Assembly: GCA_013043985.1 (NCBI GenBank)
Contig: JABEVJ010000261.1
Location: 1 to 34,278 of the forward strand
Direction of reading: 5' to 3'
Source: Legionellales bacterium
Lineage (GTDB): Bacteria > Pseudomonadota > Gammaproteobacteria > UBA1113
Length of the DNA stretch: 34,278 nucleotides
Part shown: positions 1,986 through 34,118 of the stretch, in pieces
Position numbering within the stretch: the stretch's first letter is position 1
How the letters are laid out: each line of letters begins with the position of its first letter
The notes under the pieces: model-generated
Database searches by the model: none
What the model saw: only the letters and a program-made list of their open reading frames with translations
What the model was told of the DNA's origin: nothing
Translations under genes and position numbers: made by a program

Positions 1986-1988
1986 AAG

Positions 1989-11206: not shown

Positions 11207-11219
11207 CGAAATAAACCCA

Positions 11220-11531: not shown

Positions 11532-11550
11532 GGTTGTTACCTCACGTTAA

Positions 11551-11736: not shown

Positions 11737-11797
11737 ATACGGTTACCGCCTTTCGTTTCTCTTCCCCTTATTGTATATTAATTGTATAATGAATGAA

Positions 11798-11812
11798 ATT
11801 CATGCCATGAAT
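11798..11812. promoter_or_regulatory. Perfect 15-bp palindrome ATTCATG-C-CATGAAT containing a T-N11-A LysR-type box
   Basis: It lies in the 98-bp divergent intergenic region between 11736 and 11835. TATAAT at 11785-11790 lies just upstream on the + strand. Confidence 0.55.
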
Positions 11813-11834
11813 AATCATTATTGAGAAAATTCAT

Positions 11835-12746
11835 ATGTTAAATATCAACTTTAATCTTTTAAAGGCACTGGATGCGTTGCTTTCAGAGCAGAATGTATCA
11901 AAAGCAGGGGATAAAGTAGGTGTCACACAATCTGCTATGAGCGTTTCCTTGAATCAACTCAGAAAAATGTATCGCGATGATTTACTGGTCAGGGGCGTGC
12001 AGGGTCGTATGAGCCTGACTGTTTTTGCCGAAGCATTAAGGCAACCTGTTCAAGAGGCCATGCGTCAAATGGAAACCGTGTTTATTGCCCATACGCCTTT
12101 TGAGCCAATTCATAGTACCCGAACGTTTCATATTGGCATGTCGGATTATATTGCCTTTGTATTGTTACCCAACCTAATGAGAATAGTGGGCACTGTTGCG
12201 CCCAATATTAAGATTATGCAACATGCCGTCAACCACCTTGACAGCTTAAGGCCGTTTGAGGAAACCCAACTGGATGTGGTGTTGGGCGATTTTCGCTCTG
12301 TACCCAGCAGCTTGAAAACAACGCGTTTATTTACCGATGACAGTGTGATTGTAGCCGATAAAAAACATCCTGCCTTTGCCAAAAAGACATTCAGTGTCGA
12401 AAAAATGCTGACTTACCCGCAAGTGTTTGTTGCGCTGGAAAGCCAACCAGAGGACAATTTTATTGTTGAAATGCTCAAAAAAAACGGGCATAGCGTCAAA
12501 ATGAGTCTGATGACTCCTCATACTTTGATAGCATTGCAAACATTGCCTAACACCTTACTCATGACCAATACGGTCAAAAAACTGGCTGAACCTTTTCTTG
12601 AACCATTAGGGTTAGTGATGCGTGAAACACCCTATAAACTGCGAAATTACCATGCTAATATGTATTGGCATGCCAGAATGCAGAATGACCCGGCGCATAG
12701 CTGGTTACGGGAACTCATCAAAAATGCCACAGGTCGGCTGGAATGA
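11835..12746 (+). CDS. LysR-family transcriptional regulator
   Basis: N-terminal wHTH LLKALDALLSEQNVSKAGDKVGVTQSAMSVSLNQLR plus a substrate-binding-domain-sized C-terminus. Confidence 0.9.
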   Translation: MLNINFNLLKALDALLSEQNVSKAGDKVGVTQSAMSVSLNQLRKMYRDDLLVRGVQGRMSLTVFAEALRQPVQEAMRQMETVFIAHTPFEPIHSTRTFHIGMSDYIAFVLLPNLMRIVGTVAPNIKIMQHAVNHLDSLRPFEETQLDVVLGDFRSVPSSLKTTRLFTDDSVIVADKKHPAFAKKTFSVEKMLTYPQVFVALESQPEDNFIVEMLKKNGHSVKMSLMTPHTLIALQTLPNTLLMTNTVKKLAEPFLEPLGLVMRETPYKLRNYHANMYWHARMQNDPAHSWLRELIKNATGRLE

Positions 12747-12777
12747 ATAGCAGCTTACCTCTACGCGGATAATCAAA

Positions 12778-14619: not shown

Positions 14620-14648
14620 TAGAGGTCAAAAACTGAGAAAGAATAGAA

Positions 14649-15452
14649 ATGAGCAACTTTAAGCCTTACCTTGTCAAATGGCATCTCAAACCGGATGGCG
14701 AACCAATGACAATGCCCAGCAGTGAGCTGCTGCCCGTGCGTTATCAAGGCAAGCCTGCTATGTTGAAAATGGCTAACACAGAAGAGGAGCAAAGAGGCTT
14801 TGCGCTTTTATTGTTCAGGCAAGGGCTTGGTGCAGTGCCGATATTTGAGCATGAGGATAAGGTAATTTTAATGGAGCGGGCGATAGGAAACCGCTCGCTT
14901 GTCAGCATGGCAACAGAAGGGCAGGACAGCGAAGCCACGCGCATTATCTGTGAAGTGACGAATAAAATACATCAATTACAAATCAAGCCTTTTCCCTCTG
15001 AACTAGTACCTCTCAATATCTGGTTCAGGGCGTTGGAGCCGGTGGCAAAGCAGCGGGGCGGCTTATTTCAGAAAGCCCTGTTATTATCAAAGGAACTGTT
15101 AAATACGCCGCAGGAAGTCGCTGCCTTACACGGTGATATTCATCACGGCAATATTCTGGATTTTGGCGAGCATGGCTGGCGGATTATCGATCCAAAAGGA
15201 CTCGTGGGTGAACGCACATTTGATTTTGCGAATATTTTGTGCAATCCTACTCTTGAAATCGCTACCAAACTGCATCGATTGGAAGAGCAGGCATTGCTCA
15301 TCGCGCAGCTGGCAGAGGTTGATTATATCCGTTTATTGAAATGGGTGTTGGCGTATTCAGCACTGTCAGCCTCATGGCATCTTGAAGACGGCACGAATCC
15401 TGAGCTGGCACTCAGGGTCGCCACAATAGCTCATCAGCTGTTACGTCATTAA
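14649..15452 (+). CDS. APH(6)/StrB-like aminoglycoside (streptomycin-type) phosphotransferase
   Basis: LHGDIHHGNIL, IDPKGLVGERTFDFANIL and AYSALSASW parallel the StrB motifs LHGDLHHENI, IDPVGLVGE and AYGCLSAAW. Confidence 0.75.
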   Translation: MSNFKPYLVKWHLKPDGEPMTMPSSELLPVRYQGKPAMLKMANTEEEQRGFALLLFRQGLGAVPIFEHEDKVILMERAIGNRSLVSMATEGQDSEATRIICEVTNKIHQLQIKPFPSELVPLNIWFRALEPVAKQRGGLFQKALLLSKELLNTPQEVAALHGDIHHGNILDFGEHGWRIIDPKGLVGERTFDFANILCNPTLEIATKLHRLEEQALLIAQLAEVDYIRLLKWVLAYSALSASWHLEDGTNPELALRVATIAHQLLRH

Positions 15453-15477
15453 TGAACAGAGAAAGGTGATAAAAAAT

Positions 15478-16107
15478 ATGTCCATCTTATCCTGGTTAAC
15501 AGCCAAGTATTACGACAAAATCATGCAGGATGCCGAAACGAAAGGGCTGAAAGAGTGGCGAACGCAATTATTACGTCACGCCACGGGAACGGTACTGGAA
15601 ATTGGAGCGGGCACGGGAAGTAATCTTGAGTGTTATCCGCAGACGATAAAAAAACTGGTGCTGCTCGAACCTAGCCCGCACATGCGACAGCAATTAACGT
15701 TAAAATTATCAGCGAATAACGCATACCCTATTGAATTGTTGGACGGAAAAGCCGAATCTATTCCATTTCCAGATGCTACTTTCGATGCGATTGTTTGTAC
15801 ACTGGTTCTGTGCTCTGTCAAAAACATGGGCAAAGCACTCTCAGAACTGCATCGAGTGCTTGCTCCCGAAGGAAAATTGATTTTTATTGAGCATGTTGCT
15901 GCAGCCAAGCATACAACTCGATTCAAATGGCAAAAAATGGTTGAACCCGTCTGGAAAAGGATGGCATCAGGGTGTCATGTCACCCGTCAAACGGAAGCCG
16001 CGTTGGTTCAGGCAGGTTTCATGATTGAAGACATTGCTCGGCAAAGTATGCGCGGTGTTCCTTCTCTGGTTCGTCCTACCATCCGAGGGATTGCCATAAA
16101 ATGTTAA
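15478..16107 (+). CDS. Class I SAM-dependent methyltransferase (Methyltransf_11 type)
   Basis: Motif I VLEIGAGTGSN and post-I LVLLEPS. The ATG is at 15478; a GTG at 15466 is also possible. Confidence 0.75.
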   Translation: MSILSWLTAKYYDKIMQDAETKGLKEWRTQLLRHATGTVLEIGAGTGSNLECYPQTIKKLVLLEPSPHMRQQLTLKLSANNAYPIELLDGKAESIPFPDATFDAIVCTLVLCSVKNMGKALSELHRVLAPEGKLIFIEHVAAAKHTTRFKWQKMVEPVWKRMASGCHVTRQTEAALVQAGFMIEDIARQSMRGVPSLVRPTIRGIAIKC

Positions 16108-16129
16108 CCTTTAATATATTGCCAATCGT

Positions 16130-17302
16130 ATGCTTTTAGTCGCGGTCATTTTGATGGATCTCTTGGCGGGCATTGAGTTTGATTTATTCGTGCCGAGTTT
16201 TCCTGCCCTGCAAAGCCAGTTCGGTCTGTCGCCTTTTTGGGTAGAAGCGTTATTGTCAGTCAATTTCATCGGTTATTGTCTGAGTCTGTTTTTTGTGGGC
16301 GGGTTGGCCGATAGGTATGGACGTAAACCGATTATTTTGCTGGGGCTAGGCATGTTTACCCTCGGCAGTTTGCTTTGCCCCTGGGCGACGTCCTATTCCT
16401 TTCTTTTTATGGGGCGATTTCTTCAAGGGGTAGGTATTGCGGCTCCCGCGATCTTAAGTTTTTTAATCATTGCCGACGCCTATCCGCTTAAAAAACAGCA
16501 GTATTTGATGGCGATGCTCAATGGTTTAATGAATGTTTCTGTTGGTTTTGCCCCTGTGGTTGGCAGCTATGTCGCCCTGTATTTTCACTGGCAGGGCAAC
16601 TTTATGGCACTGCTGTTGTTAGGGGTACTGGTTTTGGTGATGACGGCCTGTTTTATTCCACACTATCCCTTGCCAGAAAAAAAAGAAACGCTCTCATGGC
16701 GTGGATATGTTCCACTCTTTCAATCAAAACCGTTGATGCTGTTGATGTCACATTTTGTGTTGATGTGCATTCCCTATTGGATTTTTGTGGGTATGTCGCC
16801 TTTACTGTACATGAAAAGCTTAAGGGTGAGTCTTGCTCATTTTGGGTATTATCAGGGCATACTGGCTTTGGTCTTTGGCCTGGGAAGTTTAGGTTTTGGC
16901 TTGATTATCCATCAGTTTGAACAGAAAAAAATACTCTATTTCGCCAGTCAAATCTTTATTGTCAGTTTGATCACCATTGGGTTCACGACGTTGTTCGACA
17001 GCCATAATCCACTCCTGATTACACTCGCCCTGCTTCCTTTTATTATCGGTCAGATTATTCCGTCTAATATTTTGTATCCTTTGTCCCTGAACATCCTGCC
17101 TGAGGCCAAAGGAAAAGTATCGGCGGTGATTCAAGGCTCTCGGCTTCTGTTGACAGCTCTTTCGCTTCAGCTGGCAGGTTATTTTTATAGTGGCTCCTTT
17201 CAATCGATTGGGGTGCTTATCCTCGGTTTTATTTTGATGGCACTGATGACGCTCTTTCTCGTCATCAAAAATCGTGAGTTGATGATGTTAATCAGCCGTT
17301 AA
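16130..17302 (+). CDS. MFS drug-efflux-type transporter (Bcr/CflA-like)
   Basis: About 12 predicted TM segments. MFS motif A GGLADRYGRKPIILLG. Confidence 0.8.
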   Translation: MLLVAVILMDLLAGIEFDLFVPSFPALQSQFGLSPFWVEALLSVNFIGYCLSLFFVGGLADRYGRKPIILLGLGMFTLGSLLCPWATSYSFLFMGRFLQGVGIAAPAILSFLIIADAYPLKKQQYLMAMLNGLMNVSVGFAPVVGSYVALYFHWQGNFMALLLLGVLVLVMTACFIPHYPLPEKKETLSWRGYVPLFQSKPLMLLMSHFVLMCIPYWIFVGMSPLLYMKSLRVSLAHFGYYQGILALVFGLGSLGFGLIIHQFEQKKILYFASQIFIVSLITIGFTTLFDSHNPLLITLALLPFIIGQIIPSNILYPLSLNILPEAKGKVSAVIQGSRLLLTALSLQLAGYFYSGSFQSIGVLILGFILMALMTLFLVIKNRELMMLISR

Positions 17303-17471: not shown

Positions 17472-18968
17472 TTATGTATGGGGGTTCACCAGTAAGGTGG
17501 TTTTATTATCCAGCCTGGACTCTTTGAGATAACCCCGCTCGAGTAACGTTTCAATGGCTTTCTTTCGTCTGGCTTTATCACGAATAGGGCAAAATTGATC
17601 AATATAGCGTGGCGTGGCCATTTCCAGTGCTTTTTCTTTCATCCACTGGATTAATCGGTTAGCATCACTGTGTTCCTGTTCGGGTTTGACGATGTTCAAC
17701 ATCCGTCTGGCTTCCACCAAATGCCAGTGCATGATATCGATGGCACGTTCAATGTTGTCAGTCTCGATATGGCCTGTTTTGCCTTCAAATAGATGAAAGA
17801 GTCCGGCGAGCCTGGCCACATTTTCCCCGGCTTTACTGACGAAATCAGGAATGCTGCCCCATTGATGCGGGTTTTTAAGCCCCCGTTCGAGTTCGTTGAA
17901 AAACATAATCCAACGGTGTTTGCCCTGTGGCGAAAATTGCAGGGTGGGTAAGTTATGACAACCGGACGCATCAAAAAACGTCGTTTCATCAAGGCAATCG
18001 GTCAGCCGTCGTTGAAAATCACTCAAGGCTTGCAGGGTCTGGGGTGGCTCTTGGTAGTAGCGTCCGCCCATGGCGGAGCTCGGGTAGGCCAAGAGGCAGC
18101 GAGCCATGAAACCACTCTGACGGCTGATGCCGTCATTTTTTGTGAGCATTTGTTGCAGAATGGCAGGTTGTAGCATCAGGCTCACGGTAAGACGGCGGTT
18201 GGCAATATGAAATGTACCGCTGGTTTTGCGGTGGGCAGAGAAGGGCTTGCCATCCCATAGACGGTTTAACATGGCAACAAAGCGTGTGGCACTCTGCTGC
18301 ATGCCTGGACTGCTGATGACAATCCCGCCCTCATCGCTCCAGAGTGAAGCACTTGGCCAACCTTTGGCAAGCTGTGAGACCATCGCCTCTTGGGTCGTAT
18401 CTTCAAAAAAGAGATGCGGCAGCACAGGAATTTCCGGCTCATCCAGCATCAGCTCGGTAAATTGGTCTTTCATCTCATCGATGTCATTTTTGCCTTCACA
18501 AGTCGCTCGGCGAATTTGGCCGAGTAAGCCTTCTTTTTCGGCAAACCATGCTTGATGCAGGGTTTTAGCCAGTTGTAATGAAGGTTGTAACTGCTCGCGT
18601 GCGCCTCTTTCCCAGGCGCGAATGGATTGACTTAAGGCATGATCGGCGGCACTTTTACGCTCGCCAGAGGCCGCGACCACCACAAAATACATGGATACCG
18701 GACTCACTAACAGGGTATCTCTGGCCACATTCGCCAGCGTTTGACAGGCAAGTGAAACCGCCGATAGAGCACTGCAGGCAATTAAAGGCAGGGGTTGCTG
18801 TCCGTATTGTTGATAAAGCTGAACGGCATGACCAATCAGGGGCGGCAAACTTTCCACCGGATAGGGTAGCGAGAGAGAGCTTTCTTCCATAAACGGAATG
18901 GGCTTAGGCCAATTAAGTTCAGTGATAATATCGTTTAATGATTCGGATGATAAAAGTGTTTTTTCCAT
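17472..18968 (-). CDS. DUF3987 (YfjI-like) protein, of the kind found in P4-type or plasmid replication modules
   Basis: 498 aa. The overall pattern matches the DUF3987 family, including a deviant P-loop-like AASGERKS. It starts 14 nt after the upstream GNAT toxin stop, so it is probably co-transcribed. Confidence 0.6.
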   Translation of the reverse strand: MEKTLLSSESLNDIITELNWPKPIPFMEESSLSLPYPVESLPPLIGHAVQLYQQYGQQPLPLIACSALSAVSLACQTLANVARDTLLVSPVSMYFVVVAASGERKSAADHALSQSIRAWERGAREQLQPSLQLAKTLHQAWFAEKEGLLGQIRRATCEGKNDIDEMKDQFTELMLDEPEIPVLPHLFFEDTTQEAMVSQLAKGWPSASLWSDEGGIVISSPGMQQSATRFVAMLNRLWDGKPFSAHRKTSGTFHIANRRLTVSLMLQPAILQQMLTKNDGISRQSGFMARCLLAYPSSAMGGRYYQEPPQTLQALSDFQRRLTDCLDETTFFDASGCHNLPTLQFSPQGKHRWIMFFNELERGLKNPHQWGSIPDFVSKAGENVARLAGLFHLFEGKTGHIETDNIERAIDIMHWHLVEARRMLNIVKPEQEHSDANRLIQWMKEKALEMATPRYIDQFCPIRDKARRKKAIETLLERGYLKESRLDNKTTLLVNPHT

Positions 18969-21801: not shown

Positions 21802-21916
21802 GTCTGAAACAACGTTTTTCTAAAGTCGATGGGTTATCAGCCATTCAAACGTCAAGATAACTGTCTACAAGACCAACCCCTTTCGGGGTGGGTTTCGCAG
21901 GAGTTTCACCTGCTCA

Positions 21917-23272
21917 TCAGTTGTATTGAGTTGTTTCTTTTTTTGCTTTCTCCTCGGGTTGAATCGGTAACGGCTCATGTTGGCTGGACGGTTTTGTTGC
22001 TTGCGCCTCAATCGCGGTCAGTGCCTTGCAAAGCGATTGCCACTGCAAACAGTGCTCATGTAATGTGAGCAAAAGTCCTCGGCATTCACTTTCTTCTTTC
22101 TCAAGTAGCGTCATCTTCTGGGCAAGAGCCTGCTTTTTCTCCTCAATGCTACCCAGTTGTTTCTCCAGCTTGGTTTGCCAATCCTGCAAGCTCACACTAT
22201 GCGTCGTGGTAGGAGAAACAACGTAGCCAGATTCCCATGATTTCTCTGCTGTTTCGCTGTCCTCAATTGATTCCTCCTTGGTGAGAGCGGATTGAAGAGC
22301 AGTCGTTGGGTTTGATATATCTGCACCCAGCAACCTTTCTGACTTTTCTGTCCGCTTACACGTCAATTCATCTCTTCCATAAACCGTAATAAACTCGATT
22401 TTCCCCATTACCTGCTCGGGATGCTGAAAAAAATACGTGTTCATTTGTGCTCGTTTGACTCCTTCCCGAACCGTTCGGGCATTGACCCAACGGGTATTAC
22501 CCGCCCGTTTTTGCAGAATGACGACATCAACAGTGACTTTCGCATCATCAAACAGGTCATCCGGTAATCGGTACGCTTCAACGAGTGAGCCACCTTCTTT
22601 AGCAATGATATGGCGCACGTGTTTTTCGGGCGCATCCAGAAAATAACGCGGTAATACCATCGCCAAGAATCCATCCGGCTTTAACAATCTCATGCATTTA
22701 CCGACAAAATAGTGGTGGATGCTGACATGCGTTAAATCCGGATGTTGCTCATCTTTCACGTTGATTTGTCCATAGGGCGGATTCCCGATAATCAAATCAA
22801 AGCCCTCCTCATCATTAATAAAGTTCTCAAATCCCTGGTGCCTGACATCCACATCCGGATACAGGGCGCGAAGTAAACGACAGCTTGTGCCATCCATTTC
22901 AACAGCAACACACTGTGCTCCTTTCCAGCTCGGTGGCATTTTCTTCACAAAAACACCATGCCCTGCGCTGGGTTCTAAAATCCGTTGTGGCGAAATGGTC
23001 CATTTTCCGAGTTTTTCATAAACAAACCCCACTAAATTTTCTGGCGTGTAATACGCTGACCTAAACGTTTCTTTGAGCGCGGTAATCTCTGAATCACTCA
23101 AGAGACGTTTTAACTGCCTGTATGTATCACGGTGATAGACCGCGTCACGTAACCCACCCCAGCCTGAATAATTTTCCAAAACAAGCCTGTCTGGGGTCGG
23201 CTTTTTTAGCTCTGAGAGGGCGTCCAGATTGAGCCGGACGCGCTCGGTATTAAACGTTTCGTTGATTTCCAT
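21917..23272 (-). CDS. Orphan N6-adenine DNA methyltransferase (Eco57I/N6_Mtase type) with a coiled-coil C-terminus
   Basis: Motif I ILEPSAGHGVF and motif IV IIGNPPYGQ. The ATG at 23272 has an aggaga RBS. No adjacent restriction endonuclease is visible. Confidence 0.8.
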   Translation of the reverse strand: MEINETFNTERVRLNLDALSELKKPTPDRLVLENYSGWGGLRDAVYHRDTYRQLKRLLSDSEITALKETFRSAYYTPENLVGFVYEKLGKWTISPQRILEPSAGHGVFVKKMPPSWKGAQCVAVEMDGTSCRLLRALYPDVDVRHQGFENFINDEEGFDLIIGNPPYGQINVKDEQHPDLTHVSIHHYFVGKCMRLLKPDGFLAMVLPRYFLDAPEKHVRHIIAKEGGSLVEAYRLPDDLFDDAKVTVDVVILQKRAGNTRWVNARTVREGVKRAQMNTYFFQHPEQVMGKIEFITVYGRDELTCKRTEKSERLLGADISNPTTALQSALTKEESIEDSETAEKSWESGYVVSPTTTHSVSLQDWQTKLEKQLGSIEEKKQALAQKMTLLEKEESECRGLLLTLHEHCLQWQSLCKALTAIEAQATKPSSQHEPLPIQPEEKAKKETTQYN

Positions 23273-24162: not shown

Positions 24163-24354
24163 GATGATTCACTCCAGTAGGATAAAAATAGCCTGTGAAA
24201 TGAACCTCTCCCTGTGGAGATGGATAACATTCCACAGAAAGGTTAATGAGCGTTTATTTTTGGATGAAATCCAAGCATAAACATGATTGATAAAACACCT
24301 GACTAACGTCCGGTTATTAGCGGTTGAGGTGTCAAAATAACAAACGGTCAAGAC

Positions 24355-24566
24355 CTGATAGCAGGTTTCATCGGGATTGCACCGATTCGTCAGTTGTTTC
24401 GTTTGGTTCATAAAAAAGCAACAGCAGCAGAAATGGCTGTTATGAAGATAGAGCATTAACTTGTGTTAACGTGGTTGGTAGGACATCAAGTCTGTGCGAC
24501 CGTTGCTGGCGGTTAATGACGTAAGAGCAAGTACAGTTTGCTGGGTTTTTAGGTGAATTGCAAGCT
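24355..24566. repeat. Non-coding repeat module, copy 1 (order B...A...B')
   Basis: Core A at 24497-24532 matches 29600-29635 (25 of the first 29 positions identical). Motif B at 24355-24400 matches 29660-29702. A degenerate B' lies at 24541-24566. Confidence 0.65.
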
Positions 24567-26927: not shown

Positions 26928-27821
26928 CTAACCACAATAAATTTTGACGATCGCGACACGCGAATGCCCAAGCTCTTCCGATACCATCCGGCGAACAACA
27001 AAATCAATCTGTTTTTGTTGCTCATTCATGGCGTTGGCTGGCATGCCCCCGTTTCGAGGGCACTCCCACCCTTCGGTATTGGATAAATTGGCCGTTAAAG
27101 TCCGGTAACGCTCTTGAGCGTAGGCATGGCGAAGACCGTGTAAATTGCGGTAACCCGAAAGCCGGACTTGTCCAATATAGATGATTTCCTGCTCGCGGTA
27201 GGATTTTTCCGGTGGGATCAAAGAGGCACCCTTGGGTAAGATTTGTTTTAGTTCATCTAAAAAAGCCCGCTGCGCTTCGGTGGTAATGGGGATGGCGCGG
27301 GGAATGCCGCCTTTTGTCCATGAGCCTTTCAACACAAGTTTACTGCCTTTGTCGGCCTCGGTGACAATAAATTTCAAGCTTTCCTCACGGCGTAACCCAA
27401 AAAGTTGTTGCAGTCTGACAGAATGCCGAATCAGGGAGTCAGAGAATCGCGCAAAGTCGATATCTCTAATGGCTTTGTTGTTTTCCGACAGGTATTGTCT
27501 CGGAGCCAGTCCCATCTCGGTATTGGGTGGCACGACCAGCGGATTGCGGATAGCTCTTGCGATAAAGCGCAATTGACTCACCCTGTTTTTAATCGTGGCG
27601 GGGTTGAGATGCTCTTCTTGCCACCGCGCAACCAAGTATTTAACGTGCCGTTGTTTAATGTGATGAATACGGGAGAGCTGATAGCCCGCTTCATGCAGCT
27701 GGGTAATGAACAAACGCGCATTATCTGCGTAATCATGTCTTGATTTGAAAGACAGCCCTTCAACGTCCTTAAACAGCTTATGAATGCTGTAATGCGCATC
27801 CTTTAGAAAACGCCTTGACAT
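26928..27821 (-). CDS. Tyrosine recombinase (small phage-integrase-family protein) with catalytic residues present
   Basis: FGLRREESLK (Arg I), WTKGG (Lys), HGLRHAYAQERY (His-x-x-Arg), LGHSRVAIVKIYCG (His and the Tyr nucleophile). Confidence 0.8.
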   Translation of the reverse strand: MSRRFLKDAHYSIHKLFKDVEGLSFKSRHDYADNARLFITQLHEAGYQLSRIHHIKQRHVKYLVARWQEEHLNPATIKNRVSQLRFIARAIRNPLVVPPNTEMGLAPRQYLSENNKAIRDIDFARFSDSLIRHSVRLQQLFGLRREESLKFIVTEADKGSKLVLKGSWTKGGIPRAIPITTEAQRAFLDELKQILPKGASLIPPEKSYREQEIIYIGQVRLSGYRNLHGLRHAYAQERYRTLTANLSNTEGWECPRNGGMPANAMNEQQKQIDFVVRRMVSEELGHSRVAIVKIYCG

Positions 27822-28639
27822 GTCAATATTTCCTTGATTTTACGGTTGTCGGCGTAGCCCATCTCCTCACGAAGCTGTTTGAGTACGGCCAGTTGGGTTG
27901 TCTTCGCAGAAGACTGACTGAGAGAGACATACCGCTCATGTAAGTAAATGTGCCGAAAATATTCTTTTTGTTGTACGCCCTGTTGTTTGAATGCGTTGGT
28001 ATGAAGCGAGGATAACAACATCAGATTGCCGCCATAGCTGGCACGAAATCCGGTGATAGGTAAGGATTTCAAATCGTGGATAAGGGCTTGCTGCGCCTCA
28101 TTCCAATAGGGAACGGTGCGGTTATGGCTGTTATAGGCCGCTTCCCGCGAAAGGCGGAGTTCGGTGTCTGCCAGCATAAACGGCTCAAAACGGATAGCTT
28201 CCTGTTTTTTAAGACCAAAGCAGACTTGTAACCGACAAACCAGCTGAACATCGGTGTCTCGGATGGATTGAATATTCATGCCTTGTTTAGCCACCGCGAT
28301 AACCGCTTTTTCATACTGAATACCCAGGGTCGGGTTATCGGGGAAAGGGATAGAATCAACATAGGCCACTATGACGCTGCGTAGGATACTGATTTTGCGA
28401 CAAACGGTATTGGATGTGTTGCCTCTTGATTGCCATAACTGAACCAGTTTTTTAAGAACAGGCGTCCGAATTTCTTTTAAACGCGGCACAAGCGAATTTA
28501 GCGCCATTAAATCATCCGGCAGGGAAAAGAGTACTTTTTCCCGCTCACGCCGAAAGCAGGGCGAGCCGCCCGCCATGGATGATAAAGCTTGCTGAATATC
28601 GGTTTTTAACAGGCTTAAACGATTAGACATGTTTTTCAA
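27803..28639 (-). CDS. Paralogue of the downstream tyrosine recombinase with a degenerate active site
   Basis: It aligns with the neighbour, but the equivalent positions read FGLKKQEAIRF (Arg to Lys), YNSHN (Lys lost), EYFRHIYLHERY (first His to Glu) and MGYADNRKIKEILTCQGVF (His to Tyr, no aligned Tyr). It overlaps the downstream gene by 19 nt. Confidence 0.65.
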   Translation of the reverse strand: MKNMSNRLSLLKTDIQQALSSMAGGSPCFRREREKVLFSLPDDLMALNSLVPRLKEIRTPVLKKLVQLWQSRGNTSNTVCRKISILRSVIVAYVDSIPFPDNPTLGIQYEKAVIAVAKQGMNIQSIRDTDVQLVCRLQVCFGLKKQEAIRFEPFMLADTELRLSREAAYNSHNRTVPYWNEAQQALIHDLKSLPITGFRASYGGNLMLLSSLHTNAFKQQGVQQKEYFRHIYLHERYVSLSQSSAKTTQLAVLKQLREEMGYADNRKIKEILTCQGVF

Positions 28640-28872
28640 TCAACATCATGGAAATAACCGGACTGACACCCTGCGAACTGGTTTAGTGTTAGTTGAGCGT
28701 TCCTCGGTTTCACTACGTCCGAGGGTACATGCCTTACGGCATTCGAGGCTCATTAGAGAAGGGGCGTTTCTTAGTCGGTTAATCGGTTCATGATGTCATG
28801 CTCCTGGTCGGTTAATTAATGATAATAACGGGTTAAAAAATAACCGTTCATTGATGGCTTAATCAGCATTCG

Positions 28873-29112
28873 TTAGTCTCGATACAGCTCAATCATGTCT
28901 TGGGTCACTTTCTCGATACTTTCAGGGGTAATTAAAACGTTAATCATCTTTCGAATGGACGGAATCATGTCGGTTTTTTCACGAATACGTTGCTGCGCGT
29001 GTCGTAATAGCTGAAATGACGGTTCGCTTAATAAAAAGGTCGTTTCCTGAGGGGTTTCGGGTAACGCATTGTCGGGTTTTACTATTGCCGTGTGGCGGGT
29101 TTCTTTTTTCAT
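28873..29112 (-). CDS. Small ribbon-helix-helix-like DNA-binding protein (79 aa)
   Basis: TTFLLSEPSFQLLRHAQQRIREK...SIRKMINVLI fits a beta-strand/helix/helix RHH layout. GGAG lies 10 nt upstream of the ATG. Short direct repeats flank it on both sides. Confidence 0.5.
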   Translation of the reverse strand: MKKETRHTAIVKPDNALPETPQETTFLLSEPSFQLLRHAQQRIREKTDMIPSIRKMINVLITPESIEKVTQDMIELYRD

Positions 29113-29128
29113 TGAATCAATACTCCAA

Positions 29129-29223
29129 GTCGTTGTTTACTCTATTCATTTAACAGCGTGCAACTGTCGTTTATGTCGTTTATCGCAAATCATTTATCAA
29201 TGGTCGTTTACTCTCCTCGTTTG
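29129..29223. repeat. GTCGTTTA(Y) direct repeats upstream of the RHH gene
   Basis: gtcgttgtttac at 29129, tandem gtcgtttat/gtcgtttat at 29166-29183, gtcgtttac at 29203-29211, tcgtttg at 29217-29223. Related gtcggttaat lies at 28774-28783 and 28807-28816, downstream of the gene. Confidence 0.65.
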
Positions 29224-29569
29224 CTTTCTATTTTCATATCTCCTGCCTGATGTGCTTGGGTGATTTTTTTAAAAAATCCACTCAAGCTCGAACTATCCTG
29301 CGGATATCGTTTTTCCTCATTCATTTGTCGTGTATTCACTCTTTCATTTCATCGGAAACACTCAATGAGCGTTTTTGAAGTTGTCTCGTCAAAAAAGAGG
29401 TATGCAAAACGACACCGTGCGATGCAGGATGAAGCAAGCCAATCATTTTTTTGACAAAGCAAATAACAGGAGCGATAAAATCACTCTGTGAAGGATGGCA
29501 ATAAAGCCGTCAGACGGATGTTGGCACCTATCTGTTTTTGAAGAACGCTAAACCTTGAAGGGAGTAACG

Positions 29570-29705
29570 CAAGTTGATTAACAACACCAAATCTAAGGTC
29601 GACTGTCGCTGGCAGTTAATGGCGTAAGGAGCAGTTTACATAAGACCAGCAGCAGCAAGCTGATAGTTTCACGGGAGTTGCACCCGATCATCAGTTATGT
29701 TCACA
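29570..29705. repeat. Non-coding repeat module, copy 2 (order A then B)
   Basis: See the feature at 24355-24566. Core A lies at 29600-29635 and B at 29660-29702. Confidence 0.65.
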
Positions 29706-29886
29706 GCCATGATAGCAAAGATACATCTCAAAAAACAAGTGCAAAATATGTTTTTATTTTGCGCAAAAATGAATCAAAAAATCGTCAAAAAAAGCGTTAT
29801 GTTTTAAAATACCAGATGGGTATTTAATTTTTTCGATTTTAACTGCTTGATCAGTAATGATTTTTTGATGACCAAAATTTGAGCTT

Positions 29887-30047
29887 TCCGAGTCGTCACT
29901 GCAAACGGCTTGCAGTGACGACTCGGATACAGTGGTCAGCGAGCTGCCCGCGATGTGCTGCCAAAGCGGTTAAAAAAATCTTTTTAAACCGCTTTGGCAG
30001 CAGAGCAAGGCAGGGCAAAAAATGAGGCAGAGCCTCCCTGCCCTGCC
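29887..30047. other. Cluster of three strong hairpins / inverted repeats
   Basis: IR1 is an 18-bp perfect stem (29887-29904 with 29910-29927). IR2 spans 29957-30001 (gctgccaaagcggtt.aaaaa with tttttaaaccgctttggcagc, one bulge). IR3 is ggcagggca at 30009-30017 with tgccctgcc at 30039-30047, and has a nested gaggc-aga-gcctc at 30024-30036. Confidence 0.8.
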
Positions 30048-30059
30048 AAACGCGCCTCG

Positions 30060-30251
30060 GGTGGATAAGGCTGTGATTTACCCCTTGTTCAGGGTCACTC
30101 CATGCGCTGCACAACCAACCCTATCCCCCGAGGCGCACGAGTTGCTATCGCACCCCTAATAAGGATCGCCAACTTACCCACAAGCTCCACACTATAGCTT
30201 CACAATATCGCAAGCGGTTTCGCTTCGTGTGGATTTGTGGATAAGTTGGCG
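30060..30251. other. DnaA-box cluster within a long imperfect inverted repeat (candidate origin element)
   Basis: TGTGGATAA at 30236-30244 is 9/9 to the consensus. TTACCCACA at 30174-30182 is 8/9. GGTGGATAA at 30060-30068 is 8/9. TGTGGATTT at 30228-30236 is 7/9. Arms 30167-30192 and 30227-30251 form a roughly 25-bp IR. GATC lies at 30164-30167. Confidence 0.6.
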
Positions 30252-30297
30252 AACTATTGAGTCAAGGGGTTTGCACCCCTTTGAACCCCAACAGCCC
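30243..30297 (+). repeat. About 55-nt repeat, copy 1 (partner at 34067-34118)
   Basis: Block 1 (aagttggcgaactattgagtcaa vs aagctaacgaaccattgagtcaa) is 19/23 identical. Block 2 (cccctttgaaccccaacagcc vs ccccttttaaccccaacagcc) is 20/21 identical. Both copies are in the same orientation. Confidence 0.7.
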
Positions 30298-30316
30298 AAA
30301 GAAAAATGAGCGTAAA

Positions 30317-30344
30317 TTTTTTTGAAACGGCCGTTTCAAAAAAA
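30317..30344. repeat. 28-bp perfect AT-rich palindrome TTTTTTTGAAACGG/CCGTTTCAAAAAAA
   Basis: Read directly from the sequence. It lies 36 nt downstream of the kfrA-like stop codon. Confidence 0.85.
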
Positions 30345-30379
30345 ATCAGGATAAAAACGGGAATCCATTCAGTAGCCGA

Positions 30380-31084
30380 TTATTTAACCCGCTCATATTT
30401 GGTGAGTTGTTTTTCAATTTCTGTATTTTTAGCCTCAGCTGCGGTGGCTTTTAAGTCGGATTGATGTTTTTTCTCTTGCAGCTCATGTAATTGTTTCTGT
30501 AATTTTTCCGCGAGGGTTTCCGCTTTTTCAGCGGCTGCATCTGCACGCTCAATTTGAAACTGGGCTTTTGCCGATTCTGTACGGGCTATTTCCTGCATTC
30601 GAAGCGATTCAGTATATTTGGAGTCTATTTCATGAAGGCGTTTTTCATATTCGCTGTTTCGCTCCATGGCCGCCGAGAGTTGCTTCTCCAAGTCGAGGTT
30701 TTTTTGCTGGAGTGATTCTTTCTGGCTCTGCAAATCCTGTTTCAGCGATTCAATTTGCTGCTCATAATCGGCCAATTGAAGATTCGCCTCTTTCAGTTGG
30801 GTCTGCTCTTTTTCCAGTCTTGATTCTAACTCTCGGCGAGTCTCGGCAACCAGACGTCCAAACTCAGCTAGTACGGATTGTTTAAAACCCTCAGACATAT
30901 CACCTGTCACCGATGAGGCAAAATCATTTTCCTGCTTCCAACGGGTTAAGTAGTCCGAAATGGTTGAAAACGAGCCACCAATTCGGGCGTGAATATTGCG
31001 AACGCTTAAAGACTCGCCGAGGTGGCGCATGTCTTGGCATGCTTTGCAGAAATCAGAATAAGAAACCGCTTCTTTTTTAGCCAT
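30380..31084 (-). CDS. kfrA: KfrA-like plasmid DNA-binding protein (N-terminal HTH plus a long coiled coil)
   Basis: MAKKEAVSYSDFCKACQDMRHLGESLSVRNIHARIGGSFSTISDYLTRWKQE matches the KfrA_N pattern, and is followed by about 170 aa of heptad-rich helix. I chose the ATG at 31084; the annotated upstream extension runs through the operator repeats. Confidence 0.7.
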   Translation of the reverse strand: MAKKEAVSYSDFCKACQDMRHLGESLSVRNIHARIGGSFSTISDYLTRWKQENDFASSVTGDMSEGFKQSVLAEFGRLVAETRRELESRLEKEQTQLKEANLQLADYEQQIESLKQDLQSQKESLQQKNLDLEKQLSAAMERNSEYEKRLHEIDSKYTESLRMQEIARTESAKAQFQIERADAAAEKAETLAEKLQKQLHELQEKKHQSDLKATAAEAKNTEIEKQLTKYERVK

Positions 31085-31106
31085 AATGATGTCCTTTTGA
31101 GTAACA

Positions 31107-31145
31107 GATAACGATACGGTAACGTTATCATGTGTTACGATAACG
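31107..31145. promoter_or_regulatory. Putative kfrA-like operator: three GATAACG motifs
   Basis: GATAACG lies at 31107-31113 and 31139-31145, with the inverted CGTTATC at 31123-31129. The cluster lies 23-60 nt upstream of the start codon. Confidence 0.5.
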
Positions 31146-31272
31146 CGCAAGTGTGGATGGAAATAAGGTTGACCGTTCGAACACTACGCTCTGATCTCAA
31201 CAGACTTATCTCTCACCAGCTGGTTTCAAAATCAGGCAAGGCCAAAGCCGTAAAATGATCTTCTCTCATCAA

Positions 31273-33971: not shown

Positions 33972-34066
33972 CAGTGTATCTCGCGGTTAAAAAAATCGAT
34001 TTCATATATAGCGTGTTATTTATACAAAACGTGGTGAGAATAGCACTCAGTAGGGGAATAGTCGAG

Positions 34067-34118
34067 AAGCTAACGAACCATTGAGTCAAAGCACTTACCC
34101 CTTTTAACCCCAACAGCC
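34067..34118 (+). repeat. About 55-nt repeat, copy 2 (partner at 30243-30297)
   Basis: See the feature at 30243-30297. This copy lies about 100 nt upstream of the minus-strand gene 33423..33971. Confidence 0.7.

What the first reader, a model, noticed from the sequence alone, without database searches (positions are those of the whole stretch)
29113..30379. 1.27-kb ORF-free region with direct repeats, an AT-rich tract, GC-rich hairpins and DnaA boxes: candidate oriV, or possibly oriT
The elements appear in this order:
- GTCGTTTA(Y) direct repeats at 29129-29223.
- One copy of the A/B non-coding module at 29570-29705.
- A very AT-rich tract at about 29740-29880, with A and T runs and a GATC.
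- An 18-bp perfect hairpin at 29887-29927 and two further long hairpins, extending to 30047.
- A 10-bp long-range inverted repeat (30052-30061 with 30127-30136).
- One perfect DnaA box and three near-consensus boxes, embedded in a roughly 25-bp inverted repeat (30167-30251).
- A 28-bp perfect AT palindrome at 30317-30344.

A kfrA-like gene follows directly, which matches where KfrA sits next to oriV in IncP-type plasmids. Repeats, an unwinding tract and DnaA boxes together are the canonical layout of a theta-replication origin.

No adjacent rep gene is visible. Because of that, an oriT or single-strand-initiation role for the hairpins remains possible.
Basis: partly seen in the sequence, partly recalled or inferred. 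Interest (0 to 1): 0.62.

Follow-up and report, generated by a model that had tools for sequence, protein, structure and literature searches.

The report
Likely transfer origin, not replication origin
The gene-free stretch is the control region in front of a pair of integrase-like genes typical of Legionella-type mobile islands; its conserved DNA hairpin is most likely where DNA transfer between cells starts, and it does not look like a plasmid replication origin.

Summary
Comparison with 88 related loci changes what they mean.

- **Conserved hairpin:** The 18-bp perfect hairpin (29887-29927) carries a motif, CGTCACTG/CAGTGACG. That motif sits once, 0.3-2.4 kb upstream, in front of nearly every homologue of the adjacent intact tyrosine-recombinase-like gene (Int2, 26928-27821). 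Its outer stem covaries and its loop length varies.
- **Gene context:** In Legionella islands and plasmids the module lies between the coupling-protein end of a genomic-island-type (MPF_G) conjugation system and ssb/ardA-type leading genes. Five plasmids carrying it gave no match to four canonical relaxase families.
- **DnaA boxes:** They lie in the stem of a long hairpin (30166-30252) that recurs near the conserved hairpin in several lineages. This resembles a DnaA-dependent single-strand priming site.
- **"A/B module":** It is a type I hammerhead-like ribozyme (29637-29701, minus strand) just downstream of a conserved extended -10 promoter.
- **Other features:** The GTCGTTTA repeats are specific to this lineage. 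The AT palindrome is a terminator-like element after kfrA.

Best reading: an origin of transfer plus a priming site for a recombinase-type (MOB_M-like) relaxase, confidence about 0.55. A recombination site scores about 0.2 and a theta-type oriV about 0.1.

The parts
26928..27821 (-). Int2: an intact two-domain tyrosine-recombinase-like protein and the candidate MOB_M-like relaxase.
   Evidence: It matches Pfam PF12834 and PF12835. R144, K170, H228, R231, H232, H286 and Y295 are invariant in 32 homologues. The AlphaFold model has pLDDT 92.8. Its best PDB folds are IntI-attC, Xer, lambda Int and Cre.
27803..28639 (-). Int1: a catalytically degenerate paralogue of Int2.
   Evidence: The alignment shows loss of Arg-I, Lys, His-II and the Tyr nucleophile, in this window and in the Legionella and Francisella orthologues. 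A paralogue upstream of Int2 was detected in at least 41 of 80 loci.
28664..28773 (-). Possible divergent RAGATH-13-like RNA between ORF79 and Int1.
   Evidence: The Rfam match is weak: 22.1 bits, E 0.27, far below the gathering score. It lies at the same position as strong RAGATH-13 hits of 84-107 bits in Legionella loci.
28873..29112 (-). ORF79: the small first gene of the operon, with no assigned family.
   Evidence: It is homologous to the 78-aa gene at the same position in pPC1000_1 (27% identity, E 1e-11). It has no Pfam, NCBIfam or PHROG hit.
29129..29223 (+). GTCGTTTA(Y) direct repeats just upstream of the ORF79 start: a lineage-specific operator or accessory-protein site, or part of the leader.
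   Evidence: Three perfect and two degenerate copies are present. The motif is not shared by relatives, which carry their own short repeats at this position.
29637..29701 (-). The predicted cleavage is after C at 29644.
   Evidence: A covariance model built only from relatives scores it 51.4 bits, E 2e-13. The core CUGAUGA...GAAAC...GUC is present and stem I is ACAUAA/UUAUGU. The closing pair of stem II is U-U. No Rfam hammerhead model matched it.
29709..29719 (-). Predicted extended -10 promoter (TTTGCTATCAT) firing towards the hammerhead and ORF79.
   Evidence: TTTGCTA is conserved in 6 of 7 aligned sequences (TTGATA in L076), about 20 nt upstream of the hammerhead. The promoter call is read from the sequence and the start site is not mapped.
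29740..29880 (.). AT-rich tract between the conserved hairpin and the promoter.
   Evidence: GC is 24.8%. The simple scan found no minus-strand sigma-70 consensus here.
29887..29927 (.). H1: the family-wide conserved CGTCACTG hairpin, candidate core of the transfer origin and site of Int2 action.
   Evidence: It is present upstream of Int2 in 78 of 88 loci. It is the only copy in this genome. Each locus has one copy, 76 in all, against 0 in shuffles. Outer-stem positions 2-4 are 97-100% Watson-Crick paired and use all four pair types. Core spacing ranges from 6 to 27 nt. Fold z-scores are -8.9 and -9.8.
29956..30002 (.). H2: a 22-bp-arm hairpin.
   Evidence: With H3 the fold z-score is -8.3 and -9.7. 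The sequence is not conserved in relatives, although they also carry long hairpins at this position.
30007..30047 (.). H3: a GC-rich hairpin with an inner mini-hairpin. It is terminator-like on the minus strand.
30052..30136 (.). H4: a 10-bp perfect long-range inverted repeat enclosing 65 nt, with a one-mismatch DnaA box at 30060-30068.
30166..30252 (.). H5: a long hairpin with DnaA boxes in its stem, a candidate DnaA-dependent single-strand initiation site ('A-site' type).
   Evidence: Fold energies are -26.4 and -29.0 kcal/mol, z = -7.4 and -8.4. The sequence is homologous in L009, L028, L052, L064 and L076. Analogous convergent DnaA-box hairpins lie 180-380 bp from H1 in L028, L031/33/46, L059, L064 and L078/93, and about 130 nt from it in a same-genus genome (L002).
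30317..30344 (.). A 28-bp perfect palindrome flanked by T and A runs, 35 bp after the kfrA stop. It is probably a bidirectional terminator.
   Evidence: repeat I11. The position relative to the stop at 30380 comes. The terminator scan did not flag it because it has no loop, so this is an inference.
30380..31150 (-). kfrA-like gene, a neighbour that is not a conserved part of the module.
   Evidence: It matches PF11740 at E 5e-13. No KfrA homologue was found in any of the related loci.

Best explanation
The region is the cis-acting and regulatory region of a conserved three-gene module: ORF79, the dead paralogue Int1 and the active tyrosine-recombinase-like Int2. This module is typical of Legionella-type genomic islands and plasmids that carry a genomic-island-type (MPF_G) conjugation system.

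Proposed mechanism (inferred, not shown):

1. Int2 recognises the conserved CGTCACTG hairpin H1 (29887-29927) in extruded or single-stranded form, helped by Int1 and possibly ORF79.
2. Int2 nicks one strand there, acting as a recombinase-type (MOB_M-like) relaxase. H1 is therefore the core of an origin of transfer.
3. The neighbouring hairpin cluster (29956-30252) folds in the transferred single strand.
4. Its DnaA-box stem H5 recruits DnaA, DnaB-DnaC and primase, like an ABC-primosome 'A site'. This primes complementary-strand synthesis.

The half of the region nearer the genes is not an origin element.

- The AT-rich tract carries an extended -10 promoter.
- The transcript begins with a hammerhead-like ribozyme.
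- A roughly 590-nt leader runs into ORF79-int1-int2 and includes the GTCGTTTA repeats.
- The AT palindrome at the far end is a terminator-like element after kfrA.
For: **H1 belongs with the gene family**
- 78 of 88 loci have a GTCAC...GTGAC hairpin 0.3-2.4 kb upstream of Int2.
- Two Pasteurellaceae plasmids carry a GTCATT variant.
- Each locus has exactly one copy, 76 in all, and shuffled sequence gives none.
- It is the only such hairpin in the window's own genome.

**Shape, not spacing, is conserved**
- Outer-stem positions 2-4 are 97-100% Watson-Crick paired and use all four pair types.
- G-T pairs are almost absent, so the constraint holds on both DNA strands.
- The distance between the core motifs ranges from 6 to 27 nt. 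This does not fit a fixed 6-8-bp crossover site.

**Gene context**
- The recurring order is MPF_G genes, TraG_N, TraD (coupling protein), the non-coding region with H1, a small ORF, Int1, Int2, then ssb, ardA, DUF932 or YfjI.
- In Vibrio plasmid pSIO1 the Int2 homologue is followed by a genuine coupling-protein gene.
- Five Int2-bearing plasmids, two with a TraD coupling-protein gene and MPF_G transfer genes (pPC1000_1 carries the full gene set), have no six-frame match to TraI_2, Relaxase, TrwC or MobA_MobL.

**Protein**
- Int2 keeps the full R-K-H-R-H-Y set and Int1 has lost it.
- The Int2 model has a recombinase fold. The best PDB match is the integron integrase bound to a folded attC hairpin.

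**Literature**
- Legionella islands have a conserved tandem 'integrase' pair, and no relaxase has been found in them (PMC3864950).
- Recombinase-type relaxases (TcpM, MobK, MpsA) exist (PMC6414798, PMC8152469).
- A hairpin carrying a DnaA box supports DnaA-dependent priming on single-stranded DNA (PMC6127211).

**H5 recurs near H1**
- Homologous or analogous DnaA-box hairpins lie near H1 in several lineages.
Against: - **No experiment:** Nicking, mobilisation and priming are all inferred.
- **Family membership untested:** No reference sequence or profile for known MOB_M relaxases could be obtained.
- **Int2 looks like a complete recombinase:** Unlike MpsA, MobK and TcpM as described, it has a full core-binding domain. 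It could therefore be an ordinary recombinase.
- **Symmetry argument:** A dyad-symmetric site is also what a recombinase dimer would bind.
- **No conjugation system here:** The window's own assembly (337 contigs) has no MPF_G system or TraD.
- **Relaxase absence only partly checked:** Other relaxase families (MOB_V, MOB_C, MOB_T, MOB_B) were not screened in the five plasmids.
- **Published deletion phenotype:** Deleting one tandem integrase in L. pneumophila Corby raised the episomal form (PMC3864950). A relaxase role does not obviously predict this.
- **End chemistry:** Tyrosine recombinases attach to the 3' phosphate. How that end chemistry would pilot a transferred strand is unknown.
- **H5 position varies:** It lies on either side of H1 in different lineages. 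In L002 it sits next to the promoter, so it could be a DnaA-controlled operator instead.
Confidence: 0.55

Rival explanations
1. H1 is a site-specific recombination site for Int2/Int1. It would serve multimer resolution of the excised island or plasmid, or another recombination reaction, and would have no role in conjugative nicking.
For: - Int2 is a complete two-domain tyrosine recombinase with all catalytic residues.
- H1 is dyad-symmetric like lox or dif core sites.
- The same gene and hairpin occur in 4-15-kb plasmids that have their own Rep gene. A resolution system would be the usual expectation there.
- Deleting one of the tandem integrases in L. pneumophila changed the level of the episomal form (PMC3864950).
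Against: - The distance between the conserved half-sites ranges from 6 to 27 nt, with inner stems continuing in some lineages. This does not fit a fixed crossover region.
- The outer arms covary freely, as expected for base pairing rather than protein contacts.
- The module is linked to coupling-protein genes and leading-region genes.
- Four canonical relaxase families gave no match in the five plasmids searched, two of which carry conjugation (MPF_G) genes.
- The partner protein is catalytically dead, so a heteromer could cut only one strand.
Confidence: 0.2
2. The region is, or contains, a vegetative replication origin. DnaA boxes and an AT-rich unwinding tract would act with an unrecognised initiator such as the DUF3987/YfjI helicase-like protein at 17472-18968.
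For: - There is a local cluster of one perfect and two one-mismatch DnaA boxes.
- A tract of 24.8% GC is present.
- Short direct repeats are present.
- A kfrA-like neighbour is present.
- The module includes a DUF3987 protein that matches phage helicase/primase families, and an ssb gene.
- Plasmids carrying the module, such as pPC1000_1 and pSIO1, have no annotated Rep.
Against: - No Rep family was found in the window.
- The repeats are short, few, irregular and not conserved.
- The AT tract holds a conserved promoter feeding a ribozyme leader.
- The DnaA boxes lie in a hairpin stem, and their position relative to H1 varies between lineages.
- KfrA is absent from all related loci.
- The module is mostly chromosomal and coexists with separate Rep genes in small plasmids.
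- Cumulative GC skew over this single 34-kb contig shows no informative turning point at the region.
Confidence: 0.1
3. The hairpin cluster is mainly RNA-level structure. It would consist of terminators or a structured non-coding RNA read through from kfrA, or an antisense RNA, rather than DNA sites.
For: - A terminator-like palindrome follows kfrA, and H3 is terminator-like on the minus strand.
- Relatives carry several structured RNAs in the same intergenic region: the hammerhead, RAGATH-32 and RAGATH-13.
- SGI1 needs a small RNA encoded between its oriT and mpsA (PMC9299015).
Against: - H1 pairs are almost exclusively Watson-Crick, with virtually no G-U on either strand. This points to a DNA-level constraint.
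- H1 lies upstream of the conserved promoter.
- No Rfam family matches the cluster beyond chance hairpin hits.
- H5 conserves DnaA-box sequence, which is a DNA-binding motif.
Confidence: 0.08

Closest known systems
mobSGI1 module of Salmonella Genomic Island 1: oriT_SGI1, sgm-sRNA, MpsA and MpsB (PMC6414798, PMC9299015)
   Same: - A tyrosine-recombinase-type protein with an HxxRH motif and a C-terminal Tyr acts with a recombinase-derived accessory partner.
- A GC-rich oriT built from inverted repeats lies upstream of the gene.
- An RNA is encoded between the oriT and the gene.
- Published catalytic positions of MpsA (R162, H247, R250, H251, Y319) have nearly the same spacing as in Int2 (R144, H228, R231, H232, Y295).
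- IR3 of oriT_SGI1 has the core CGTCTCTG. That is one base away from CGTCACTG.
   Different: - No sequence-level comparison with MpsA could be made.
- Int2 has its own core-binding domain.
- The partner, Int1, is a full-length dead paralogue, not a 98-aa domain protein.
- A third small gene, ORF79, is present.
- The RNA here is a hammerhead-like motif rather than sgm-sRNA.
- A DnaA-box hairpin is present.
- The distance from the hairpin to Int2 is about 2.1 kb (about 0.8 kb to the first gene of the operon, ORF79), against about 0.3 kb to mpsA in SGI1.
Tandem 'integrase' pair of Legionella genomic islands with GI-type T4SS (Wee et al. 2013, PMC3864950)
   Same: The tandem arrangement and gene family are the same: 41-46% identity to Legionella homologues and the same neighbours. 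The published islands lack any recognised relaxase.
   Different: - The paper assigns no function or cis site to the pair.
- The window's copy is a divergent member from a Legionellales-like metagenome genome.
- No T4SS was found in that assembly.
MobK/oriT of pIGRK and TcpM/oriT of pCW3: recombinase-like (MOB_M) relaxases (PMC8152469; bioRxiv 10.64898/2026.01.13.699239)
   Same: The enzyme is recombinase-derived and sits next to an oriT rich in inverted and direct repeats. Such genes are annotated as integrases and missed by relaxase typing tools.
   Different: - Those proteins lack arm-binding and core-binding domains.
- They act alone.
- No sequence similarity was tested here.
ABC-primosome 'A site': a hairpin carrying a DnaA box that primes single-stranded DNA replication (Masai et al. 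1990 and Masai & Arai 1995, as cited in PMC6127211)
   Same: A long stable hairpin places a consensus DnaA box in double-stranded form within single-stranded DNA.
   Different: - H5 carries two box-like repeats per arm.
- It is untested.
- It could instead act as a double-stranded operator or origin element.
IncP-type oriV next to kfrA
   Same: DnaA boxes, an AT-rich tract, repeats and a KfrA_N-domain gene next door.
   Different: - There is no TrfA-like initiator.
- There are no 17-22-bp iterons.
- The KfrA adjacency is not conserved in relatives.
- The AT tract is a promoter region.
Bacterial hammerhead ribozymes near integrase and ardA genes (Perreault et al. 2011, PMC3088659) and RAGATH RNA motifs (Rfam RF02688, RF02922)
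   Same: Type I hammerhead-like motifs flank the int operon and the leading-region genes. RAGATH-32 and RAGATH-13 follow the hammerhead in Legionella loci.
   Different: - The copy at 29637-29701 has a U-U closing pair in stem II.
- No Rfam hammerhead model reports it.
- RAGATH-32 was not detected in the window, and RAGATH-13 only weakly.
Integron integrase IntI acting on folded single-stranded attC hairpins (PDB 2A3V)
   Same: It is the best structural match of the Int2 model. It is a tyrosine recombinase that recognises the shape of a folded hairpin rather than its sequence.
   Different: - The match is only marginally better than to Xer, lambda Int or Cre, with TM about 0.5 and 16% identity.
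- There is no integron context.

Membership tests
Theta-type plasmid oriV (iteron/IncP-like) | An initiator (Rep) gene adjacent or elsewhere on the element | tested here: not met
   No Rep family was found among the window's main ORFs by Pfam. The flanking and unassigned ORFs were also checked against NCBIfam and PHROGs. The only replication-type proteins are a DUF3987 helicase-like protein and SSB.
Theta-type plasmid oriV (iteron/IncP-like) | An array of 17-22-bp iterons at regular spacing | tested here: not met
   The repeats are 8-9 bp, with three perfect copies spaced 9 and 28 bp apart. They are not conserved in relatives.
Theta-type plasmid oriV (iteron/IncP-like) | DnaA boxes next to an AT-rich unwinding element | tested here: inconclusive
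   Boxes and a 24.8%-GC tract both exist. They are about 300 bp apart, the boxes lie in a hairpin stem, and the tract holds a conserved promoter.
Recombinase-type (MOB_M) relaxase plus oriT module | A tyrosine-recombinase-fold protein with a catalytic Tyr encoded next to the site | tested here: met
Recombinase-type (MOB_M) relaxase plus oriT module | A score above the cut-off of the published MOB_M profile, or clear homology to TcpM, MobK or MpsA | not testable with these tools
   Neither the profile nor the reference sequences could be obtained. pIGRK is not in the plasmid collection. The SGI1 supplements held no protein sequence.
Recombinase-type (MOB_M) relaxase plus oriT module | Link to a coupling protein or MPF_G system, with no other relaxase present | tested here: met
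   This is met in relatives. It is not met in the window's own fragmented assembly, which has no MPF_G genes or TraD.
Recombinase-type (MOB_M) relaxase plus oriT module | Site-specific nicking and dependence of mobilisation on the protein and the site | not testable with these tools
   This needs mating and nicking assays.
Classical tyrosine-recombinase core site (lox/dif/att type) | Two inverted binding arms around a fixed 6-8-bp crossover region | tested here: not met
   Spacing between the conserved half-motifs ranges from 6 to 27 nt across 70 distinct family members.
Hammerhead ribozyme, type I | The conserved core (CUGANGA, GAAA, UH) enclosed by three helices | tested here: met
   The core and stems I and III are present at 29637-29701 (-). 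Stem II has a U-U closing pair. In relatives, 12 of 14 pairs show changes on both sides and 96% of cells are paired. Those sequences were picked by a stem-requiring pattern, which inflates the pairing figure.
Hammerhead ribozyme, type I | A match to a curated Rfam hammerhead model | tested here: not met
   There is no hammerhead hit at the gathering score or at E up to 10 on a 191-nt slice. None was listed for Legionella loci either.
Hammerhead ribozyme, type I | Self-cleavage | not testable with these tools
   This needs in vitro transcription of 29600-29720 (minus strand).
ABC-primosome A-site (DnaA-dependent single-strand initiation) | A stable hairpin with a DnaA box in its stem | tested here: met
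ABC-primosome A-site (DnaA-dependent single-strand initiation) | DnaA-dependent priming on single-stranded DNA | not testable with these tools
   This needs an M13-based single-strand initiation assay or a reconstituted primosome assay.

The most novel reading that the evidence does not exclude
H1 plus the DnaA-box hairpin may form a combined transfer and replication origin. A recombinase-derived nickase, active Int2 held in a heteromer with dead Int1, would open one strand at an extruded hairpin. DnaA-dependent primosome assembly on the neighbouring hairpin would then start DNA synthesis. The same site would serve conjugative transfer and also maintenance of the excised element.
Probability: 0.1. 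Interest if true: 0.85.

Novelty: new variant of a known kind. Interest (0 to 1): 0.6.

Why it matters
**An open question in Legionella biology**
- Legionella genomic islands with a GI-type secretion system have been reported to lack any recognisable relaxase or oriT since 2013 (PMC3864950).
- Their conserved tandem "integrases" have had no assigned role.
- The hammerhead ribozymes and RAGATH RNAs next to such "integrase" genes have also been unexplained (PMC3088659).

**What this work adds**
- One short, easily recognised DNA hairpin (CGTCACTG stem) marks these modules. It is found in Legionellales, Francisella, Vibrio, Pasteurellaceae and Betaproteobacteria.
- That gives a concrete, testable candidate for the nick site of a recombinase-type relaxase.
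- It also gives a simple sequence signature for finding mobilisable islands and plasmids that current typing tools call non-mobilisable.

**For this window**
- The stretch should not be annotated as a replication origin.

Tried and rejected
- **DNA similarity searches:** The region gave nothing against plasmids in near or distant mode. Against 60 related genomes the only hit was a 37-nt match, which turned out to be the hammerhead.
- **Relative search with one protein:** It found no loci. An alignment was needed.
- **Rfam:** No family matched at the gathering score in the window. Low-threshold hits in the hairpin cluster are chance microRNA-type matches. No hammerhead model fired.
- **PDB by sequence:** No recombinase was found with the Int2 profile. 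A fold search was needed.
- **Homology to known recombinase-type relaxases:** This could not be tested. pIGRK is absent from the collection, the SGI-4 oriT paper is not held, and the SGI1 supplements carry no MpsA sequence.
- **Sequencing runs:** Transcript ends, ribozyme cleavage and coverage could not be examined.
- **Circular plasmid idea:** I considered whether the contig is a complete circular plasmid. There is no terminal overlap, so this is undecided.
- **Attachment-site idea:** I considered whether the imperfect direct repeat at about 30231-30296 and 34055-34118 marks attachment sites. It is left unexplained.
- **GC skew:** On a single 34-kb contig it is dominated by gene orientation and was not informative.


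Full report
**What the window is**

The window is a whole 34,278-bp contig of a 2.7-Mb, 337-contig genome estimated 96.7% complete. The genome is 40% GC and the window 43%. It has no tRNA genes and no Rfam match at the gathering score.

The finding (29113-30379) lies between two minus-strand units.
- Below it is an operon of three genes:
  - ORF79 (28873-29112);
  - a 278-aa integrase-like gene, Int1 (27803-28639);
  - an overlapping 297-aa integrase-like gene, Int2 (26928-27821). Both integrase-like genes match Pfam PF12834, and Int2 also matches PF12835.
- Above it is a kfrA-like gene (30380-31150; PF11740).

Further along the same strand are a DNA methylase, ssb, several acetyltransferases and a DUF3987/YfjI helicase-like gene. 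The left 17 kb carries acetyltransferase, phosphotransferase, nucleotidyltransferase, beta-lactamase-family and transporter genes.

**Checking the observation**

- **GTCGTTTA:** Three perfect copies lie within 45 bp. The window has 5 copies against 0.66 expected.
- **AT tract:** 29740-29880 is 24.8% GC.
- **Hairpins and repeats:** The 18-bp perfect hairpin, the 22-bp hairpin, the third hairpin, the 10-bp long-range repeat and the 28-bp palindrome are as described.
- **DnaA boxes:** One perfect box (30236-30244, minus strand) and two one-mismatch boxes lie within 185 bp. This is unlikely by chance even after correcting for the whole window, about 3e-3.
- **Folding:** As single-stranded DNA, 29880-30350 folds far better than shuffled sequence (z = -15.2). 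29113-29879 does not (z = -1.1).

The region therefore has two halves. The half away from the genes is dense in hairpins and 54% GC. The half nearer the genes is AT-rich to average in composition.

**Finding relatives**

DNA searches found nothing useful, so I followed the proteins.
- Int2 has homologues at 36-47% identity in 198 plasmid records. These include Legionella, Francisella, Vibrio, Pasteurellaceae, Acinetobacter and Agrobacterium.
- A profile search gave at least 522 matches in species-representative genomes. I kept the best 80 loci, mostly Legionella and Legionellales, many of them chromosomal.
- The DUF3987 protein is about 52% identical to proteins of Legionella plasmids.

An alignment shows that Int2-type proteins keep the complete tyrosine-recombinase catalytic set. 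R144, K170, H228, R231, H232, H286 and Y295 are invariant in 32 sequences. The upstream paralogue Int1 has lost the first Arg, the Lys, the second His and the Tyr, in this window and in its Legionella and Francisella orthologues.

ORF79 is homologous to the small first gene of the Legionella plasmid pPC1000_1.

The Int2 model is confident (pLDDT 92.8) and is a two-domain recombinase fold. Its best PDB match is the integron integrase bound to a folded attC hairpin, followed closely by Xer, lambda Int and Cre.

**The key result: the hairpin belongs to the gene family**

- In 78 of 88 loci, a hairpin with GTCAC on one arm and GTGAC on the other lies 0.3-2.4 kb upstream of Int2.
- The two Pasteurellaceae plasmids that seemed to lack it have a GTCATT variant.
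- With a strict definition there are 76 such hairpins in 1.3 Mb of loci, never more than one per locus, and none in shuffled sequence.
- In the window's own genome the only paired instance (flanks complementary) is at 29887-29927.

I anchored 71 distinct sequences on the core motif.
- The four pairs outside the core are 96-100% Watson-Crick.
- Three of those positions use all four pair types.
- G-T pairs are nearly absent.
- Pairing decays to background by position 7.
- The distance between the two core motifs ranges from 6 to 27 nt. In some lineages the stem continues inward.

Free covariation, a variable loop and Watson-Crick pairing on both strands point to a DNA hairpin or cruciform with a sequence-specific core. 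A classical recombinase core site would have a fixed 6-8-bp crossover.

**Gene context**

In Legionella elements the order recurs as follows:
1. genes of the genomic-island-type conjugation system;
2. TraG_N and the TraD coupling protein;
3. sometimes AcaB and topoisomerase III;
4. the non-coding region with the hairpin;
5. the small ORF, Int1 and Int2;
6. ssb, ardA, DUF932 or YfjI.

Within the 9-kb flanks, many of which are cut short by contig ends, the counts are as follows.

| Feature | Loci out of 80 |
|---|---|
| TraD present | 21 |
| Leading-region-type genes downstream on the same strand | 25 |
| Int1 paralogue upstream of Int2 | at least 41 |

In the 4.9-kb Vibrio plasmid pSIO1 the Int2 homologue is followed by a small ORF and a genuine coupling-protein gene.

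Five Int2-bearing plasmids were screened. Two carry a TraD coupling-protein gene and MPF_G transfer genes, and pPC1000_1 carries the full gene set. None has a six-frame match to TraI_2, Relaxase, TrwC or MobA_MobL. All five are typed non-mobilisable.

**What the literature says**

- Wee et al. reported that Legionella islands with this secretion system lack any recognisable relaxase. They carry a conserved tandem pair of putative integrases of unknown role. Deleting one of them raised the episomal form (PMC3864950).
- Recombinase-like relaxases are established for pCW3 (TcpM), pIGRK (MobK) and SGI1 (MpsA with MpsB) (PMC6414798, PMC8152469).
- A 2026 preprint names this class MOB_M. [quoted passage not shown] That is exactly where the hairpin sits.
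- The published MpsA catalytic positions have nearly the same spacing as those of Int2.
- One inverted repeat of the experimentally defined oriT of SGI1 has the core CGTCTCTG, one base from CGTCACTG. I treat this as a lead, not a test.
- I could not obtain any MOB_M sequence or profile, so family membership is untested.

**The rest of the region**

I aligned the window's region with six Legionella-group loci. Three conserved blocks emerged.

*Block 1: the DnaA-box hairpin (30166-30252).*
- Homologous sequence, TGTCCACATATCCAYACGAAGCG...GAAGCTCTAGTGTGGGTATGTGG, occurs in five of the six loci.
- Analogous convergent DnaA-box hairpins lie 180-380 bp from the conserved hairpin in L. drancourtii, a Tatlockia genome, two other Legionellales genomes and five copies in one metagenome genome.
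- In a same-genus genome a perfect-box hairpin sits between the conserved hairpin and the promoter.
- These hairpins are stable on both strands, with z-scores from -4.4 to -8.4.
- A hairpin that presents a DnaA box in double-stranded form is the defining feature of the "A site", which lets DnaA load DnaB onto SSB-coated single-stranded DNA (PMC6127211). A single-strand priming site beside an oriT makes functional sense.
- Because its position relative to the conserved hairpin varies, an operator or origin role cannot be excluded.

*Block 2: the conserved hairpin itself.*

- On the minus strand it reads ACAUAA-CUGAUGA-stem II-GAAAC-stem III-GUC-UUAUGU. This is the core and helix order of a type I hammerhead ribozyme.
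- A pattern search found such motifs in 41 loci, all on the Int strand.
- On 34 of them, 12 of 14 pairs change on both sides. These sequences were selected by a pattern that requires stems, so the paired fraction is partly built in.
- A covariance model built only from relatives finds three strong matches in the window, all on the minus strand:

| Position | Score (bits) |
|---|---|
| 21864-21927 | 55.6 |
| 29637-29701 | 51.4 |
| 24347-24398 | 47.5 |

- The same model gives 74 matches in the related loci, all on the Int strand. They lie upstream of Int1, or downstream of Int2 or before ssb/ardA.
- Rfam's own hammerhead models report none of these.
- The copy in the finding has a U-U closing pair in stem II, so its activity is uncertain.
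- In Legionella loci the hammerhead is followed by strong RAGATH-32 and RAGATH-13 matches. The window has only a weak RAGATH-13-like hit at the equivalent position.
- This fits the published but unexplained association of bacterial hammerheads with "integrase" and ardA genes, Legionella included (PMC3088659).
- About 20 nt upstream of the hammerhead, six of the seven sequences share TTTGCTA, part of an extended -10 element. It lies at 29709-29719 on the minus strand. The AT-rich tract is therefore at least partly a promoter region, and the transcript would begin at the ribozyme.

*Remaining features.*
- The GTCGTTTA repeats lie in the leader or promoter region just before ORF79 and are not shared. 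Relatives carry their own short repeats there.
- The AT palindrome lies 35 bp after the kfrA stop and looks like a bidirectional terminator. This is an inference, since the scan tool did not flag it.

**Weighing the readings**

*Theta origin.* This needs an initiator and iterons, and neither is present. KfrA adjacency is unique to this contig. The module coexists with separate Rep genes in small plasmids and is mostly chromosomal. I give it about 0.1. Plasmids carrying the module that lack any annotated Rep keep it alive.

*Recombination site.* This is the serious rival at about 0.2. Int2 is a complete recombinase and the site is symmetric. Against it stand the variable spacing, the single site per element, the dead partner, the coupling-protein linkage and the missing relaxases.

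*RNA-only reading of the hairpin cluster.* I give this about 0.08. The pairs are strictly Watson-Crick and the hairpin lies upstream of the promoter.

*Best reading.* An origin of transfer with an adjacent single-strand priming site, serving a recombinase-type relaxase, at about 0.55. That the region is the cis-acting and regulatory region of the int module, and not a classical oriV, I hold with much higher confidence.

**Limits**

- Nothing here is experimental.
- The window's assembly has no MPF_G genes or TraD. It does contain three relaxase-family genes on other contigs. This copy may therefore be a mobilisable or decayed element.
- Earlier notes of this scan reach a similar reading for related Legionella and enterobacterial loci. 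I found the hairpin-gene link before reading them. They are not independent evidence.

Noticed in passing
window 21864-21927 (-) and 24347-24398 (-): Two more hammerhead-like motifs match the model built from relatives, at 55.6 and 47.5 bits. The first lies just after the methylase gene and before ORF77/ssb. The second falls inside the predicted ORF95 (24169-24456), which may therefore be mis-called.
   Followed up: partly
window about 30231-30296 and 34055-34118: An imperfect direct repeat of about 65 nt (77% identical) includes the shared stretch CGAACYATTGAGTCAA...ACCCCTTTKAACCCCAACAGCC. It brackets kfrA, ORF135, ada, a PEP-mutase-family gene and ORF182. It could mark an old insertion or duplication and is unexplained.
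   Followed up: no
window 900-17300: A dense run of small-molecule-modifying and resistance-like genes: several GNAT acetyltransferases, three APH-family kinases, two AadA-type nucleotidyltransferases, a beta-lactamase-family protein, an esterase, methyltransferases, and ABC and MFS transporters. A Legionella adelaidensis element likewise carries APH and GNAT genes right after Int2.
   Followed up: no
L002 (same-genus genome G001, contig C52) 1244-1556: A same-genus genome carries the same module in compact form: a CGTCACT hairpin, then a perfect DnaA-box hairpin, then an extended -10 element, then a hammerhead scoring 69 bits with the same stem I as the window, then an Int1-like gene.
   Followed up: partly
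own genome contigs C13, C14, C15, C288: Other mobile-element pieces are present in the assembly: a YfjI-like gene (C13), a MOB_P-type relaxase (C14), DUF932 with a MobA_MobL fragment (C15) and a TraI_2-type relaxase (C288). No MPF_G genes or TraD coupling-protein gene were found.
   Followed up: partly
L012 (Vibrio plasmid pSIO1, 4906 bp): The annotation lists only a 104-aa ORF, the Int2 homologue, a 73-aa ORF and a coupling protein. No replication gene is listed, so how the plasmid replicates is unclear.
   Followed up: no
L019, L036, L016, L009 (Legionella loci), between the hammerhead and Int1: Strong Rfam matches to RAGATH-32 (82-99 bits) and RAGATH-13 (84-107 bits) sit in the leader of the int operon. 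This ties two RNA motifs of unknown function to this gene family.
   Followed up: partly
oriT_SGI1 sequence (supplement of PMC6414798): Inverted repeat IR3 of the experimentally defined SGI1 oriT reads CCCCGTCTCTGT...ACAGAGACGGGG. Its core differs by one base from the CGTCACTG core found here.
   Followed up: no
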